From positions 1 to 6,589 of the IMG/VR virus record IMGVR_UViG_3300045988_019679: DNA of 6,589 nucleotides; one strand, 5' to 3'. Positions 1,357 through 3,647 of this stretch are shown here, in pieces. The stretch comes from a virus. Position 1 is the stretch's first letter. Each line of letters starts with the position of its first letter. The notes under the pieces were generated by a model. It saw only the letters and a list, made by a program, of their open reading frames with translations, ran no database searches and had not been told where the DNA came from. Both the position numbers and the translations under genes were made by a program.

Positions 1357-1375
1357 TTACAAAGTTTCTTTGTAA
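1357..1375 (-). promoter_or_regulatory. Hairpin TTACAAAG-TTT-CTTTGTAA covering the last VP4 codons and its stop codon
   Basis: 8-bp perfect stem with a 3-nt loop. The minus strand reads TTACAAAGAAACTTTGTAA, with the TAA stop as the last 3 stem bases, followed by CT-ATG of the 59-aa ORF. Confidence 0.5.
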
Positions 1376-2754
1376 ATAGCAAGAATGTTCTCACTATCTG
1401 TCTTATATTTAACATAAGTTATATCTATCTCGGGCAAAGTTGACATATATTCACTCATAAACTCATGATGTTCACGTTTAGCTGCGGTCATCTTCTTGTA
1501 ATAATCAAGGTCAAATTCGTAAGCTTCAAGCATAGCCAAAAGAGGCTCAAGAATGTGTTCCATAACAATAAGGCTGTCCTCATGATGAATGGCGTAGAAG
1601 TTTTTCGCATTGTCAAAAATAAAGCGAGGGAAGCGATGTACACAGGTGTCGAAGTTGTAAAAGGGGAACTTTTCTCCAAGCCATTTACGGGTGATATTAA
1701 CCTCTTTATCAGGCATATGGAGATGTATCTGCCAAAGACATGCGCGAATTGACAAGAAATAGTCTACCAACTGAATAGTATCACGAATTTCTTTGCGAAT
1801 AAGCAGAGAAGGCGTGGGGTAGAGTTTCCGGCGAAAATAAGAGGGGATGTATGACGTAAAACGTTCACCTGTGAACTTATCGACAATCTCAACAGTCAGA
1901 ACGTCAGGATGTTGATAAAACCAAAGAACGTGGTCAAGACACCATTTGTAACCAAGACCGCCGCCGCGGCGGGAGGATAAGTAAAAAGTGGGCTTGCAAC
2001 CTGCAGGAACATCACTTTCTTTACGCATATATTTCATGCAATATTGAATGCCGCCTTGAGTACAAGGCTTGCAATAAACAAAACCAAGTTCACCTACATA
2101 ATCCCAATCAAAGCGATGAGTAAGTTTATTATAGACTCGTTTTCGAGCAGACCAAGCCTGATGAACAATTTTATACACATCCATAGCAGACATGTTAATA
2201 GGCATATTCCAAAGAATAAGGTGATAATGAGGCAATTTCGTATGGCTGCCATACTCAGCGGCGGCAAAATACCGTATCTTTTCAGTATAATCATAATCTC
2301 GAGTGAGAATCTGACGCAAACGTTTAAGAAAATCTTGTACATGTTTTTTATCTACGCCGTCAACAGGACGATTCGCAGGATTATAAGTCAGAGTGATAAA
2401 GTAAGGGACGGAACGAGATGATTGTGTTTCAGCAACAGCGCGAAACATCCATTCACGGGCATTTCTTTTTCGACAAAGAGCACATTTACGACAAGGAATT
2501 GCCAAAAACATAGGTACGGCATCATCGTCGCGATCAATGGCGTAATAGCTATCTTGATATGAAGCAAAGTTCTGAGAATCAATAGCTTTCGGAGAAAACA
2601 AAGCGTATGGAAAATTCCAGCGCCATGCGGCAAGTTGCATTTCCGGAACAAAAGTTGCATTTCCGTTGTAAACATATTTTCCTGTTCTCAAAAGTGCATC
2701 CTTAAATGCAGGATTTAAAATGTATTTCGGTTTTTCACAAAGAATATTTGACAT
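1357..2754 (-). CDS. VP4: Replication initiation protein VP4 (phiX174 gene A-like HUH rolling-circle endonuclease), 465 aa
   Basis: Motifs seen in the translation: Cys cluster CRKCALCRKRNAREWMFR, motif 1 FITLTY, HUH motif LPHYHLILW, and the paired catalytic tyrosines YCMKYMRKE (Y-x-x-K-Y). An in-frame TAA at 2763..2761 blocks upstream extension. Confidence 0.95.
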   Translation of the reverse strand: MSNILCEKPKYILNPAFKDALLRTGKYVYNGNATFVPEMQLAAWRWNFPYALFSPKAIDSQNFASYQDSYYAIDRDDDAVPMFLAIPCRKCALCRKRNAREWMFRAVAETQSSRSVPYFITLTYNPANRPVDGVDKKHVQDFLKRLRQILTRDYDYTEKIRYFAAAEYGSHTKLPHYHLILWNMPINMSAMDVYKIVHQAWSARKRVYNKLTHRFDWDYVGELGFVYCKPCTQGGIQYCMKYMRKESDVPAGCKPTFYLSSRRGGGLGYKWCLDHVLWFYQHPDVLTVEIVDKFTGERFTSYIPSYFRRKLYPTPSLLIRKEIRDTIQLVDYFLSIRACLWQIHLHMPDKEVNITRKWLGEKFPFYNFDTCVHRFPRFIFDNAKNFYAIHHEDSLIVMEHILEPLLAMLEAYEFDLDYYKKMTAAKREHHEFMSEYMSTLPEIDITYVKYKTDSENILAIYKETL

Positions 2755-2775
2755 AGTTTTTTATTTTTAATTTGG

Positions 2776-2840
2776 GCGTCCGGGCGGGCTATCCGCTCAA
2801 ACAAATCGGCTTCGCCGATACTCGCTCCTATCCCTGACGC
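2776..2840 (-). promoter_or_regulatory. GC-rich nested helix element in the VP4 leader: outer helix 2776..2784 / 2832..2840 enclosing hairpin ATCGGC-TTC-GCCGAT (2805..2810 / 2814..2819)
   Basis: gcgtccggg pairs with ccctgacgc (8 of 9 positions, one mismatch). The inner 6-bp stem is perfect. CTATCC occurs at 2789..2794 and 2828..2833, on either side of the inner hairpin. Confidence 0.4.
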
Positions 2841-2949
2841 GCTTCACTTCGTTACGCAATATATACGGAGGCGTCATCCAAGATGACAGAGAGGTGTTCG
2901 CGCTACCGCGCTCACGATTTCATAATTTCCTTTTATCTCTCAAGATGTG

Positions 2950-2957
2950 CAAAGATA
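2950..2957 (-). promoter_or_regulatory. Candidate -7 box TATCTTTG upstream of VP4 (no good -33 TTTG)
   Basis: The 8-mer is the same as in the 94-aa ORF promoter. It sits about 195 nt upstream of the VP4 ATG and is overlapped by the inverted repeat TTTATCT (2932..2938) / AGATAAA (2953..2959). Confidence 0.4.
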
Positions 2958-2993
2958 AAGTGTAGGCTAAAATATCGTTTATCAACCTGCGCC

Positions 2994-3033
2994 AAACTAT
3001 GTTAAAGTCGCTACGCTTGGTTTAACATAGTTT
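2994..3033. repeat. Perfect 13-bp inverted repeat AAACTATGTTAAA / TTTAACATAGTTT with a 14-nt loop (GTCGCTACGCTTGG)
   Basis: Read directly from the sequence: arms at 2994..3006 and 3021..3033. Direct repeats CGCCAAAC flank it at 2990..2997 and 3043..3050. Confidence 0.9.
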
Positions 3034-3157
3034 ACCACAGAACGCCAAACGCTATTTTTTCCTACGCATTGTTTTATTGCACGTCTCGAAAGAAAAAAGG
3101 AAAAATATGCTTTGATGTTTGCGATAGATAAGAGACAGAATGGATAAGAACGCAAAC

Positions 3158-3174
3158 CGAAGTTGGGAACTTCG
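3158..3174 (-). terminator. Hairpin CGAAGTT-GGG-AACTTCG. On the minus strand it is followed by GTTTGCGTTCTT; possible terminator after the 94-aa ORF or an ssDNA origin hairpin.
   Basis: 7-bp perfect stem with a 3-nt loop. The downstream tract is T-rich but imperfect. Confidence 0.35.
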
Positions 3175-3227: not shown

Positions 3228-3284
3228 TCATTCAAATCTTTCACACAAGCTGAGCAATGTGTCAGTTGTGCTACTTATATCAAG

Positions 3285-3569
3285 TTAGTCGATGCCGGAT
3301 GTTTCACCCGGTCCACAAGTTATCCGACAAAAGTCGGAATAAGATAGTTCTTCAATCACCTTGCGATTACAATACTGAGCATCTATTATGCCTACAAACA
3401 AGAATGAAGACTTGTATGATTCTTCCATATAATCTATAAAAGTAACAGCTCGATCATCCATGCGTTTATGATTAATTGCTTGGTAAATAGTATTGCAATC
3501 TATACCGGTTACCTTAACAAATACTTGTTTCTGTTTTCTAATGCTTAAAAACTGTAAAAGAATGTCCAT
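3285..3569 (-). CDS. 94-aa hypothetical protein with a possible N-terminal helix-turn-helix (AlpA/Xis- or XRE-like), preceded by its own promoter
   Basis: ORF-track entry. The segment KQVFVKVTGIDCNTIYQAINHKR resembles the V-x-x-x-TG[ILV]-x-x-x-T[IL]Y-x-x-I pattern of small phage HTH proteins. A Bacteroidetes-type promoter lies 50-80 nt upstream. Codon usage has visibly more A-ending codons than the structural genes. Confidence 0.5.
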   Translation of the reverse strand: MDILLQFLSIRKQKQVFVKVTGIDCNTIYQAINHKRMDDRAVTFIDYMEESYKSSFLFVGIIDAQYCNRKVIEELSYSDFCRITCGPGETSGID

Positions 3570-3615
3570 AATCGTAATGTTTTAAGGGTTTATAATCTTG
3601 TTTCTTTCAACACTA

Positions 3616-3647
3616 CAAAGATAGACATTCTTTATAATTTATCCAAA
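3616..3647 (-). promoter_or_regulatory. Bacteroidetes-type promoter for the 94-aa ORF: -33 TTTG (3647..3644), 20-nt spacer, -7 TATCTTTG (3623..3616)
   Basis: The minus strand reads TTCTTTGGATAAATTATAAAGAATGTCTATCTTTGTAG. This matches the Bacteroides sigma-AB consensus TTTG-N19-21-TAnnTTTG. An inverted repeat ATTCTTT/AAAGAAT (3627..3633 / 3645..3651) overlaps the -33 box and spacer. Confidence 0.6.

What the first reader, a model, noticed from the sequence alone, without database searches (positions are those of the whole stretch)
2990..3050. Perfect 13-bp inverted repeat flanked by CGCCAAAC direct repeats: origin or dif-like attachment candidate
AAACTATGTTAAA(N14)TTTAACATAGTTT is the longest perfect palindrome I see in the genome. 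It is bracketed by CGCCAAAC at 2990..2997 and 3043..3050. Each arm (CTATGTTAAAG) matches 9 of 11 positions of the XerD-binding arm of E. coli dif (TTATGTTAAAT, quoted from memory). The preceding CCTGCGCCAAA loosely resembles the XerC arm GGTGCGCATAA, but there is no 6-bp central spacer. Microvirus-like proviruses exist in Bacteroidetes genomes and this genome has no integrase. As I recall, host Xer-mediated integration has been proposed for such elements, and CTXphi uses a folded ssDNA hairpin as its attP. The alternative reading is that this is the Rep nicking or ori stem-loop.
Basis: partly seen in the sequence, partly recalled or inferred. Interest (0 to 1): 0.65.

Follow-up and report, generated by a model that had tools for sequence, protein, structure and literature searches.

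The report
Strand-specific promoter-bearing hairpin in gut microvirus
The 13-bp palindrome is the tip of a conserved 190-base DNA hairpin in a small single-stranded gut phage; it most likely marks where the host starts copying the incoming strand, and is not a chromosome-attachment (dif) site.

Summary
The perfect 13-bp inverted repeat (2994-3006 / 3021-3033) is the longest in this 6,534-nt circular microvirus, and 0 of 100 simulated genomes reach 13 bp. It is only the cap of a ~190-nt imperfect hairpin ("rod", 2921-3109) on the coding, presumably packaged, strand. The rod is nearly invariant in about 70 related contigs and has compensatory changes. Two other sequence versions occur in microviruses whose Rep is only 34-42% identical, and there the rod sits in a different intergenic gap.

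Substitutions keep pairing on the viral strand only (G.T 12, A.C 1). A Bacteroidota -7 promoter box (TATCTTTG) lies in a conserved internal loop of the 3' arm, opposite a pure 18-nt pyrimidine tract.

The dif/Xer reading fails. The 9/11 XerD-arm match is at chance level, there is no XerC arm or spacer, no integrated copy was found, and every junction found maps elsewhere. Integrated Bacteroidales elements carry canonical dif-like sites.

The Rep nick site is elsewhere: TAACTTGATAT at 3287-3258, phiX174-like and conserved.

My best reading (about 0.5) is a complementary-strand origin of the single-stranded-promoter kind, like ssoA, M13 ori(-) or Frpo. No experiment supports it yet.

The parts
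2921..3109 (-). Long imperfect hairpin ('rod') of about 71 base pairs on the coding/viral strand. This is the whole element, of which the reported palindrome is the tip.
   Evidence: fold: -41 kcal/mol as DNA, z = -8. (near-invariance and covariation in relatives). (strand asymmetry).
2994..3033 (-). Apical 13-bp perfect stem (2994-3006 / 3021-3033) with a 14-nt loop (3007-3020). On the viral strand the loop reads CCAAGCGTAGCGAC and contains a GCGTAGC mini-hairpin motif and TAGCGA.
   Evidence: Compensatory CT/AG to TG/CA and GC to AT changes in relatives.
2950..2957 (-). TATCTTTG, a Bacteroidota sigma-ABfr -7 promoter box (TAnnTTTG), in the 3' arm. Its central bases lie in a conserved asymmetric internal loop. 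It points toward Rep.
   Evidence: The same extended pattern sits in canonical promoter context in large Bacteroidota phages. Consensus from PMC7366714.
3088..3105 (-). Pure 18-nt pyrimidine tract TTTTTCCTTTTTTCTTTC in the 5' arm. It pairs with the region just downstream of the -7 box and is the putative template of a purine-rich primer RNA.
   Evidence: Invariant in type A and conserved in types B and B'.
2990..2997 (+). CGCCAAAC copy 1, which overlaps the end of the 13-bp stem. It is not conserved.
   Evidence: Only the window and L015, among 21 relatives, keep it.
3043..3050 (+). CGCCAAAC copy 2, part of the paired 5' arm on the viral strand (GCGTTTG with TAAACG). It is invariant as a stem sequence.
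3258..3287 (-). Candidate viral-strand origin (Rep nick site): TAACTTGATATAAGTAGCACAACTGACACA. The expected nick lies between G3281 and A3280, by analogy with phiX174.
   Evidence: Best match in the genome to the phiX174 30-nt origin: 20/30, with 10 contiguous bases. TAACTTGATA-N10-AACTGACAC is conserved in genomes whose Rep is down to 32% identical.
3158..3174 (-). Terminator-like hairpin CGAAGTTCCCAACTTCG followed by a T-rich tail, about 50 nt upstream of the rod.
2755..2920 (-). GC-rich leader between the rod and the Rep ATG, with several covarying mini-hairpins (GCGC-GGTA-GCGC, GTCATC-TTG-GATGAC, CGGC-GAA-GCCG). In type-B genomes it travels with the rod as one cassette.
   Evidence: (helix 4).
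1357..2754 (-). Rep (VP4) gene, an HUH rolling-circle initiator, downstream of the cassette.

Best explanation
The palindrome caps a ~190-nt hairpin that forms in the packaged, sense-polarity single strand and acts as the complementary-strand (single-strand) origin.

Proposed mechanism:
- After entry, the rod folds and stays duplex while SSB coats the rest of the genome.
- The fold rebuilds a host promoter in double-stranded form. Its -7 box (TATCTTTG, in the 3' arm) is already partly melted in an internal loop.
- Bacteroidota RNA polymerase (sigma-ABfr) starts there and copies the 5' arm, whose first ~18 nt are pure pyrimidine. This makes a purine-rich RNA.
- A host DNA polymerase extends that RNA into the complementary strand.
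- In the double-stranded replicative form the same box would serve as the ordinary promoter of the downstream gene (Rep here, the VP2 operon in type-B genomes).

Shown here:
- the structure, its conservation and covariation;
- pairing that is specific to the viral strand;
- a fixed orientation but a movable position;
- the promoter-box sequence in a conserved loop.

Inferred, not shown:
- that the strand carrying the genes is the packaged one (from the family rule and from the nick motif);
- that the box is a working promoter;
- RNA polymerase priming.
For: 1. The rod is real and selected. DNA fold is -41.9 kcal/mol, z = -8.0. It is nearly invariant in relatives whose Rep is 79-98% identical. 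Cells changed on both sides number 25 against 7.8 +/- 2.7 in shuffles, 0/500. The type-B family has 12 compensated pairs against 2.2 +/- 1.3, 0/500.

2. It works as a single strand of viral polarity. The viral strand folds 3-10 kcal/mol better than its complement in 11 of 11 rods of three sequence types. Among 30 distinct type-A rods, minor pair states are G.T 12 and A.C 1.

3. Orientation is always that of the genes, but the position differs: VP2-Rep gap in type A, VP1-VP2 gap in type B, where Rep is 34-42% identical. Single-strand origins (sso) are described the same way (PMC5703833).

4. TATCTTTGCA is invariant in all types, and its centre lies in an internal loop. The opposite side of that loop varies but never complements it. 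The same motif sits in textbook TTTG-N19-TAnnTTTG promoters of large Bacteroidota phages (consensus in PMC7366714).

5. Both basal arms, including the pyrimidine tract 165 nt upstream of the box, never vary. A duplex promoter alone would not require this.

6. Apical triloops (GTA, TCT, CTT, TTT) and GCG-N-AGC motifs fit DNA hairpins. This point rests on my own knowledge.

7. A terminator-like hairpin lies 50 nt upstream, so in type A the 5' arm may be little transcribed.

8. Rival functions tested here failed; see the rival explanations.
Against: - There is no experimental or read-level evidence.
- No -33 TTTG lies at the canonical 19-21 nt upstream of the box.
- G.T/G.U tolerance fits an RNA of the same sense equally well.
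- In type-B genomes the rod starts 4 nt after the VP1 stop codon, so it is probably transcribed there and could act as an mRNA 3' hairpin.
- TAnnTTTG occurs 8 times on the viral strand, so one occurrence in a 900-nt gap is not rare by chance.
- Close relatives L083 and L084 lack the rod, so it is not essential to the clade.
- The known microvirus complementary-strand origins (phiX174, G4) use PriA or primase, not RNA polymerase.
Confidence: 0.5

Rival explanations
1. A transcription-level element. The rod is an RNA hairpin, or a duplex inverted repeat, that ends or stabilises the upstream mRNA and overlaps or regulates the promoter of the next gene. This would be a combined terminator/stabiliser-plus-promoter cassette with no role in DNA replication.
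For: All genes have the same sense as the rod strand, so G.U pairs would serve an RNA as well. In type B the rod follows the VP1 stop codon by 4 nt. The cassette always sits directly upstream of a gene and contains a promoter box. phiX174 uses intergenic hairpins as mRNA stabilisers (my own knowledge).
Against: No U-tract follows the rod. The promoter lies inside the 3' arm, so the promoter's own transcript cannot form the rod. In type A a separate terminator-like hairpin precedes it. The apical loops are triloops and GNA motifs, typical of DNA rather than RNA hairpins. No Rfam family matches except noise hits to miRNA precursors. An operator for a dimeric protein would not produce the 12:1 G.T over A.C bias.
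Confidence: 0.25
2. A complementary-strand origin of another mechanistic type. The rod is recognised by the host primosome (PriA-type, as in phiX174) or by primase (as in G4), and the promoter box is only the ordinary Rep promoter that happens to lie in it.
For: All of the strand-specific structural evidence applies equally. The only characterised microvirus complementary-strand origins are of these types (my own knowledge).
Against: This does not explain why the -7 box always sits in the internal loop, or why the opposite pyrimidine tract is invariant. The G4 and phiX174 signals are much shorter hairpins.
Confidence: 0.12
3. A Xer/dif-type attachment site. The folded or duplex palindrome binds host XerC/XerD and integrates the phage at the chromosomal dif site, as in CTXphi or the BMV proviruses.
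For: The arm matches the XerD arm at 9/11 positions. TGTTAAA is the only apex-proximal sequence shared by all three rod types. Alpavirinae-type proviruses flanked by dif-like sites exist, and their att site lies upstream of Rep (PMC3091885; my).
Against: - The 9/11 match is at chance level: 9 sites in the genome against 5.05 +/- 2.3 in shuffles, with a perfect 11/11 inside Rep.
- There is no XerC arm (...CATAA) or 6-bp spacer in either register or strand. The best full-site score at the rod is below the scores of coding sites.
- Integrated Bacteroidales elements carry canonical ATAA-N6-TTATG(T/A)TAAAT sites at both ends, scoring 13-15 of 15. One carries the same nick motif as this phage. None has such a rod.
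- No integrated close relative exists in 185,579 species genomes, in 401 Bacteroidales genomes, or among the IMG/VR contigs, whose longer members are concatemers.
- Of 38 metagenome contigs, the single long one keeps the rod intact and its junction lies in Rep.
- No integrase or excisionase-like gene was found.
Confidence: 0.05
4. The Rep nicking site or viral-strand origin. Rep would cleave in the 14-nt loop of the extruded stem-loop.
For: Many HUH initiators nick in hairpin loops. The element lies upstream of Rep in this genome.
Against: A far better candidate exists. TAACTTGATAT...AACTGACAC at 3287-3258 is the genome's best match to the phiX174 origin (20/30). It is conserved in genomes whose Rep is down to 32% identical and always sits 100-530 nt upstream of Rep. 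The rod contains no CTTGATA. The loop sequence is not conserved between rod types. In type-B genomes the rod is about 1.7 kb from the nick motif and from Rep.
Confidence: 0.04
5. A selfish miniature palindromic repeat (MITE- or ERIC-like) of the host that has landed in microvirus intergenic regions and has no function for the phage.
For: It is a long imperfect palindrome found at different positions in different genomes.
Against: No copy was found in 401 Bacteroidales genomes; only 20-30-nt noise hits appeared. The base-motif scan of IMG/VR found rods only in microviruses. Orientation is always fixed relative to the genes. There is strong purifying selection and covariation.
Confidence: 0.03

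Closest known systems
ssoA-type single-strand origins of rolling-circle plasmids (pT181, pLS1/pMV158, pE194)
   Same: Both are imperfect hairpins of about 160-190 nt in non-coding DNA. Both work in one strand and one orientation only, and their position relative to rep is flexible and cassette-like. ssoA is recognised and primed by host RNA polymerase (PMC5703833). The apical loop here contains TAGCGA, 5/6 to the CS-6 TAGCGT that marks ssoA loops (PMC4598088).
   Different: There is no sequence homology and no RSB motif. The CS-6-like hexamer is present only in type A. The host is Bacteroidota, with a -33/-7 promoter grammar, not Firmicutes. The replicon is a phage genome, not a plasmid. Function is untested.
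Minus-strand origin of Ff filamentous phages (M13/f1 hairpins [B] and [C]) and the Frpo/ssi single-stranded DNA promoters of F-like plasmids
   Same: In both, folded single-stranded DNA mimics a duplex promoter and host RNA polymerase makes a primer RNA (Frpo: Masai and Arai 1997, as cited in PMC11541004). Unpaired bases in the -10 analogue are a feature of those elements (my own knowledge). Here the -7 box sits in a conserved internal loop.
   Different: Those elements use sigma-70 -35/-10 boxes, whereas here only a sigma-ABfr -7 box is evident and there is no -33. This is one long rod rather than two hairpins.
dif-like attachment sites of Bacteroidetes microvirus proviruses (BMV1-7) and enterogokushoviruses; CTXphi folded attP
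   Same: They lie in the same intergenic neighbourhood, upstream of Rep, and the phage has no integrase. The XerD-arm-like core TGTTAAA is shared.
   Different: Those sites have the full layout of XerC arm, 6-bp spacer and XerD arm, and they flank integrated copies (PMC3091885; PMC7062461; my). The rod has neither, and no integrated copy exists.
phiX174 viral-strand origin (gene A protein nick site CAACTTG/ATATTAATAAC) and pC194-type dso
   Same: This microvirus has a 20/30 match that includes AACTTGATAT.
   Different: The match is at 3287-3258, not in the palindrome. It is a separate part of the same non-coding control region.
Complementary-strand origins of phiX174 (PriA assembly site) and G4 (primase site)
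   Same: They belong to the same virus family and meet the same need: converting the incoming single strand to a duplex by means of folded DNA in an intergenic region.
   Different: They are short hairpins without promoter motifs, and they are RNA-polymerase independent (my own knowledge).

Membership tests
Xer/dif attachment site (IMEX attP) | 28-30-bp layout: XerC arm (...CATAA), 6-8-bp central region, XerD arm (TTATGTTAAAT) | tested here: not met
   No XerC arm or spacer next to either palindrome arm, on either strand. The best whole-site scores lie elsewhere and are low. Real integrated Bacteroidales elements score 13-15 of 15.
Xer/dif attachment site (IMEX attP) | XerD-arm similarity above chance | tested here: not met
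   9 sites with at least 9/11 matches in the genome, against 5.05 +/- 2.3 in shuffles. A perfect 11/11 match lies in the Rep coding sequence.
Xer/dif attachment site (IMEX attP) | Integrated copies whose junctions fall in the site | tested here: not met
   No integrated close relative was found. Junctions in L026, L037, L038 and L127 map to window 2747, 2481/1659, 2257 and 2417. The rod is intact in L038 and L127, the two of these contigs that contain it.
Xer/dif attachment site (IMEX attP) | XerC/XerD-dependent recombination | not testable with these tools
   Needs genetics or biochemistry.
Rep nick site / viral-strand origin (phiX174, pC194 type) | CTTG/ATA nick consensus on the viral strand, conserved along with Rep | tested here: not met
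   Absent from the rod. Present and conserved at 3287-3258.
Single-strand origin (sso / ori(-) / ssi), functional class | Extended imperfect hairpin in non-coding DNA under selection for pairing | tested here: met
Single-strand origin (sso / ori(-) / ssi), functional class | Works in one strand only: fixed orientation, pairing specific to the displaced or packaged strand | tested here: met
   Computational proxy only. The viral strand is more stable in 11 of 11 rods. G.T to A.C is 12:1. Orientation equals gene orientation in all genomes.
Single-strand origin (sso / ori(-) / ssi), functional class | Position relative to rep is flexible (cassette) | tested here: met
   VP2-Rep gap in type A, VP1-VP2 gap in types B and B'.
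Single-strand origin (sso / ori(-) / ssi), functional class | Primes complementary-strand synthesis; its loss causes single-strand accumulation | not testable with these tools
   Needs experiments.
ssDNA promoter (M13 ori(-), Frpo) | Host promoter elements rebuilt in the stem, with unpaired bases in the -10 analogue | tested here: inconclusive
   The -7 box TATCTTTG lies in a conserved internal loop and matches genuine promoters. No -33 TTTG is found at 19-21 nt. Activity is untested.
ssoA sequence family | RSB motif at the base and CS-6 (TAGCGT) in the terminal loop | tested here: not met
   Only TAGCGA (5/6) in the type-A loop. It is absent in types B and B', and no RSB-like sequence is present. 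The rod is not a sequence member of ssoA.
Host miniature palindromic repeat (MITE-like) | Dispersed copies in host genomes | tested here: not met
   0 of 401 Bacteroidales genomes hold more than a 20-30-nt chance match.
Known structured RNA (Rfam 15) | Match to a curated covariance model | tested here: not met
   Only sub-threshold hits to miRNA precursors: 24 bits against a 144-bit gathering score.

The most novel reading that the evidence does not exclude
The rod is a dual-use, horizontally exchanged cassette. In the replicative form its -7 box is the sigma-ABfr promoter of the downstream gene. In the packaged strand the mirror-image arm rebuilds that promoter with the box pre-melted. Bacteroidota RNA polymerase then lays down a purine-rich primer on the invariant pyrimidine tract and starts complementary-strand synthesis. 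This would be the first RNA-polymerase-primed complementary-strand origin in the Microviridae. It would also be the first single-stranded-DNA promoter written in the -33/-7 promoter grammar of Bacteroidota.
Probability: 0.35. Interest if true: 0.65.

Novelty: new variant of a known kind. Interest (0 to 1): 0.5.

Why it matters
Gut microviruses of Bacteroidales are abundant, yet almost nothing is known about how they replicate. This work locates both origins: a phiX174-like nick site, and a strand-specific hairpin that probably starts second-strand synthesis. That gives testable cis elements for building Bacteroides single-strand vectors and for reading host range, since single-strand origins are host-specific. 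It would also extend the single-stranded-promoter idea beyond sigma-70 bacteria. In addition, it corrects a tempting over-reading: a short XerD-arm resemblance is not evidence of lysogeny, and this clade shows no sign of integration.

Tried and rejected
- **dif/Xer site:** rejected; see the rival explanations.
- **Rep nick in the loop:** rejected in favour of 3287-3258.
- **Host MITE:** rejected.
- **Known RNA family:** none matched.
- **CGCCAAAC direct repeats as a functional pair:** rejected, because they are not conserved.
- **DnaA-box resemblance (TGTGGTAAA):** considered and dropped, because the G varies in relatives.
- **ssoA CS-6 resemblance (TAGCGA):** kept only as a weak lead, because it is absent in the other rod types.
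- **ORF94 as an excisionase-like protein:** no support from Pfam.
- **Wasted scan:** one search used a pattern with one A too many and found nothing. One search corrected it.
- **L026, L037, L038, L127:** these were followed as possible proviruses. Their breakpoints differ from one another and lie in or at the start of Rep. I could not tell assembly chimeras from real recombination.

Full report
**What the window is.** The window is a complete circular microvirus genome of 6,534 nt, assembled with a 55-nt terminal redundancy (an IMG/VR record). All recognisable genes lie on the window's minus strand:
- VP1, about 752 aa, which wraps across the linearisation point;
- a 103-aa ORF;
- the VP2 pilot protein (4710-3667);
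- a 94-aa ORF (3569-3285);
- a 530-nt non-coding gap;
- Rep/VP4 (2754-1357);
- two small ORFs.

Microviridae package the strand of mRNA sense (established knowledge). A phiX174-like nick motif also lies on that strand (see "The Rep nick site is elsewhere" below). I therefore treat the window's minus strand as the viral strand.

**Observation check.**
- The repeat is the longest perfect inverted repeat in the genome. None of 100 Markov-simulated genomes reached 13 bp (mean 8.7, maximum 12).
- The 9/11 match to the E. coli XerD arm is arithmetically correct.
- The CGCCAAAC direct repeat is incidental. The 2990-2997 copy is kept in only 2 of 21 close relatives.

**The palindrome is the tip of a much larger hairpin.**
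- The repeat finder joins it to outer arms (I1: 2952-3006 / 3021-3075; I3: 2926-2952 / 3077-3103).
- As single-stranded DNA, 2921-3109 folds into one rod of about 71 pairs: -41.9 kcal/mol against -17.3 +/- 3.1 for shuffles, z = -8.0 (helices mapped).
- In 21 IMG/VR relatives whose Rep is 79-98% identical, the rod is almost invariant while flanking non-coding DNA varies.
- Where the rod does vary, the changes are compensatory. CT/AG becomes TG/CA inside the 13-bp stem, and GC becomes AT just below it.
- On 17 distinct sequences, 25 cells are changed on both sides, against 7.8 +/- 2.7 in shuffles (0/500). Sliding the partners by 1-3 columns abolishes pairing.

**Other sequence versions of the rod.**
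- A scan of IMG/VR for the conserved 3' base of the rod, together with a GenBank genome (PQ006744), revealed two further versions, types B and B'.
- These genomes have Rep only 34-42% and VP1 about 39% identical to this one.
- The three types share these features: a basal 5' arm with a pure pyrimidine tract; the basal 3' arm TATCTTTGCA...AGAT(A/T)AAAAGG; a short TGTTAAA near the apex; and the overall length and shape.
- The middle and the loop differ but still pair. In type B, 12 pairs are compensated, against 2.2 +/- 1.3 in shuffles, 0/500.
- In types B and B' the rod lies between VP1 and the VP2 operon rather than upstream of Rep.
- In every genome the rod's orientation is that of the genes.
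- The element is therefore a movable, orientation-locked cassette. In type-B genomes it carries a GC-rich block homologous to window 2759-2840, part of the leader 2755-2920.

**Strand specificity.**
- In all 11 rods tested, covering the three types, the viral strand folds 3-10 kcal/mol better than its complement and has more G.T pairs.
- I collected 71 occurrences (30 distinct sequences) of the type-A rod from all loci, including 38 human-gut metagenome contigs.
- Among them, the minor states at paired positions are G.T 12, A.C 1, other mismatches 7 and alternative Watson-Crick pairs 8.
- A transition in a Watson-Crick pair gives either G.T or A.C, depending on which base changes. A 12:1 excess therefore means that pairing is kept on the viral strand only.
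- This excludes a symmetric duplex binding site or a cruciform. It points to a function in single-stranded DNA, or in an RNA of the same sense.

**Promoter box.**
- The 3' arm contains TATCTTTG (2957-2950), an exact match to the Bacteroidota sigma-ABfr -7 consensus TAnnTTTG (PMC7366714).
- The same 20-nt pattern that I used as a probe also hit large Bacteroidota phages. There it sits in textbook context: a terminator, then TTTG-N19-TATCTTTG, then a short leader and the ATG.
- In the consensus folds of types A and B, the centre of the box lies in an asymmetric internal loop between the invariant basal helix and the covarying upper helix. The opposite side of the loop varies in sequence but never complements the box. 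In the single-sequence DNA fold, 3 nt remain unpaired.
- Transcription from this box in the folded strand would use the 5' arm as template. The first ~18 template bases are pure pyrimidine (3105-3088) and are invariant.
- No -33 TTTG lies at the canonical spacing.
- TAnnTTTG occurs 8 times on the viral strand, so the motif alone would not be significant.
- What carries the argument is its invariance, its placement in the loop, and the invariance of the distant complementary arm.

**The dif/Xer reading.**
BMV proviruses of Bacteroidales are flanked by dif-like sites upstream of Rep (PMC3091885). An enterogokushovirus integrates through XerC/XerD at a phage dif motif (PMC7062461).
- I recovered such sites myself. 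Elements integrated in Prevotella multiformis, a Muribaculum MAG, Phocaeicola vulgatus and others carry ...ATAA-N6-TTATG(T/A)TAAAT. In those three, sites scoring 13-15 of 15 bound elements of 4.8-6.9 kb at both ends.
- The P. vulgatus element even carries this phage's type of nick motif, about 100 nt from its right dif-like site.
- By the same measure the window has no site scoring 13 or more, and none at the rod.
- A 9/11 XerD-arm match occurs 9 times in the genome, against 5.05 +/- 2.3 in shuffles. A perfect 11/11 match lies inside Rep, conserved as coding sequence.
- Neither strand of the rod offers a ...CATAA XerC arm at a 6-8-bp spacing.
- No integrated close relative was found in one genome from each of 185,579 species. 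The only close hit there is a free 6,689-nt contig in a Chitinophaga assembly.
- None was found in 401 evenly drawn Bacteroidales genomes.
- IMG/VR contigs longer than unit length are concatemers.
- Four contigs join this clade to foreign DNA. Their breakpoints are at window 2747, 2481/1659, 2417 and 2257, inside or at the start of Rep. The rod is intact in the two that contain it.
- The residual point in favour is that TGTTAAA, the outer half of a XerD arm, is the one apex-proximal sequence shared by all rod types. I cannot explain this.

**The Rep nick site is elsewhere.**
- The genome's best match to the 30-nt phiX174 origin is at 3287-3258 on the viral strand: TAACTTGATATAAGTAGCACAACTGACACA. 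It matches at 20/30 positions, including AACTTGATAT across the nick position (the phiX174 sequence is from my own knowledge).
- TAACTTGATA-N10-AACTGACAC is conserved in relatives that lack the rod (KX513875, PP511798), in type-B/B' genomes, and in a Bacteroides MAG contig whose Rep is 32% identical. In the genomes where I could place both, it lies 100-530 nt upstream of Rep.
- The rod has no such motif, and in type-B genomes it lies about 1.7 kb away from the nick motif.

**Other rivals.** Rfam gives only noise hits to miRNA precursors. No dispersed host copies were found. A terminator-like hairpin sits 50 nt upstream of the rod.

**Mechanism.**
- The best-supported reading is a complementary-strand (single-strand) origin.
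- It shares the properties that define sso elements of rolling-circle plasmids: about 160 nt, extensive folding in the single strand, function in one orientation only, flexible position, and priming by RNA polymerase (PMC5703833).
- It also resembles the single-stranded promoters M13 ori(-) and Frpo (PMC11541004).
- The specific version, priming by RNA polymerase from the pre-melted -7 box onto the pyrimidine tract, is inference.
- The main rival is an RNA-level or promoter-architecture role. I cannot exclude it, especially in type-B genomes, where the rod directly follows VP1.
- My confidence is about 0.5 for a single-strand origin working by the single-stranded-promoter mechanism. A further 0.12 goes to the same kind of origin primed another way (PriA or primase).

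**Novelty.**
- The kind of element is known.
- I found no description of this family in two targeted literature searches and in the Alpavirinae papers I read.
- It would be a new variant: a Bacteroidota promoter grammar, in a microvirus.
- Earlier AI notes of this scan on related genomes reached similar readings. They are not independent evidence, and I formed my reading before I saw them.

**Limits.** Everything here is computational.

Noticed in passing
window 3258-3287 (-): A phiX174-like viral-strand origin: TAACTTGATAT...AACTGACAC, 20/30 identical to the phiX174 origin. It overlaps the stop codon of the 94-aa ORF. It is conserved in microviruses whose Rep is down to 32% identical.
   Followed up: yes
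window 2755-2920 (-): A GC-rich leader between the rod and the Rep ATG holds several mini-hairpins that covary (GCGC/GCTC/GCAC-GGTA; GTCATC/GCCATC-TTG; CGGC/TCGC-GAA). It includes the d(GCGAAGC) motif and a terminator-like hairpin at 2805-2819. In type-B genomes it travels with the rod.
   Followed up: partly
window 3021-3027 (-), and the same place in L085, L087 and L104: TGTTAAA is the only apex-proximal sequence shared by all three rod types, although the loops and neighbouring stems differ. The factor that would recognise it is unknown.
   Followed up: partly
window 1407-1417 (-): A perfect 11/11 XerD-arm sequence, TTATGTTAAAT, lies inside the 3' end of the Rep gene. It is conserved in relatives as coding sequence (...YVKY). 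This shows how easily the motif arises by chance.
   Followed up: partly
window 3557-3633: A second TATCTTTG box (3623-3616, minus strand) lies inside another inverted repeat (30-nt arms, 77% complementary), upstream of the 94-aa ORF.
   Followed up: no
L026 1-3520 (IMGVR_UViG_3300045988_116266, 10.7 kb): A relative's Rep-VP1-VP2 block is joined, exactly at the Rep start (window 2747), to a tailed-phage lysis cassette (endolysins, holin) and an integrase fragment. It is either an assembly chimera or a recombinant; this is unresolved.
   Followed up: partly
L037 10514-11336; L038 1-1038; L127 1-3051: Three bacterial-looking metagenome contigs carry pieces of this microvirus clade with breakpoints inside Rep. 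L037 has an 826-nt Rep fragment between an rnf operon and L21/Prp genes. L038 has a fusion to an AraC-like gene. L127 is a 67.8-kb contig in which the virus abuts a 300-aa ORF with a YMDD reverse-transcriptase motif.
   Followed up: partly
L048 8460-13290 (Phocaeicola vulgatus chromosome CP091733): A 4.8-kb element bounded by dif-like sites (CGCATAA-TCACCA-TTTAGTTAAAT and TTATAA-TCACCA-TTATGTTAAAT) encodes a Rep relative. It carries the microvirus-type nick motif AACTTGATATATTTATGCTAACTGACAC but has no capsid-sized ORF.
   Followed up: partly
L039 (NZ_QTJV01000041, 6,689 nt): A close relative (Rep 79% identical, rod present) is a separate unit-length contig in a 'Chitinophaga silvisoli' isolate assembly. 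It may be a carried-over gut phage or a contaminant rather than a provirus.
   Followed up: no
L083 5908-6363 and L084 3674-4134: The nearest GenBank relatives by capsid (KX513875, PP511798) keep the nick motif but lack the rod. Their nick-to-Rep gap holds different small hairpins, so the putative single-strand origin module is exchangeable.
   Followed up: partly
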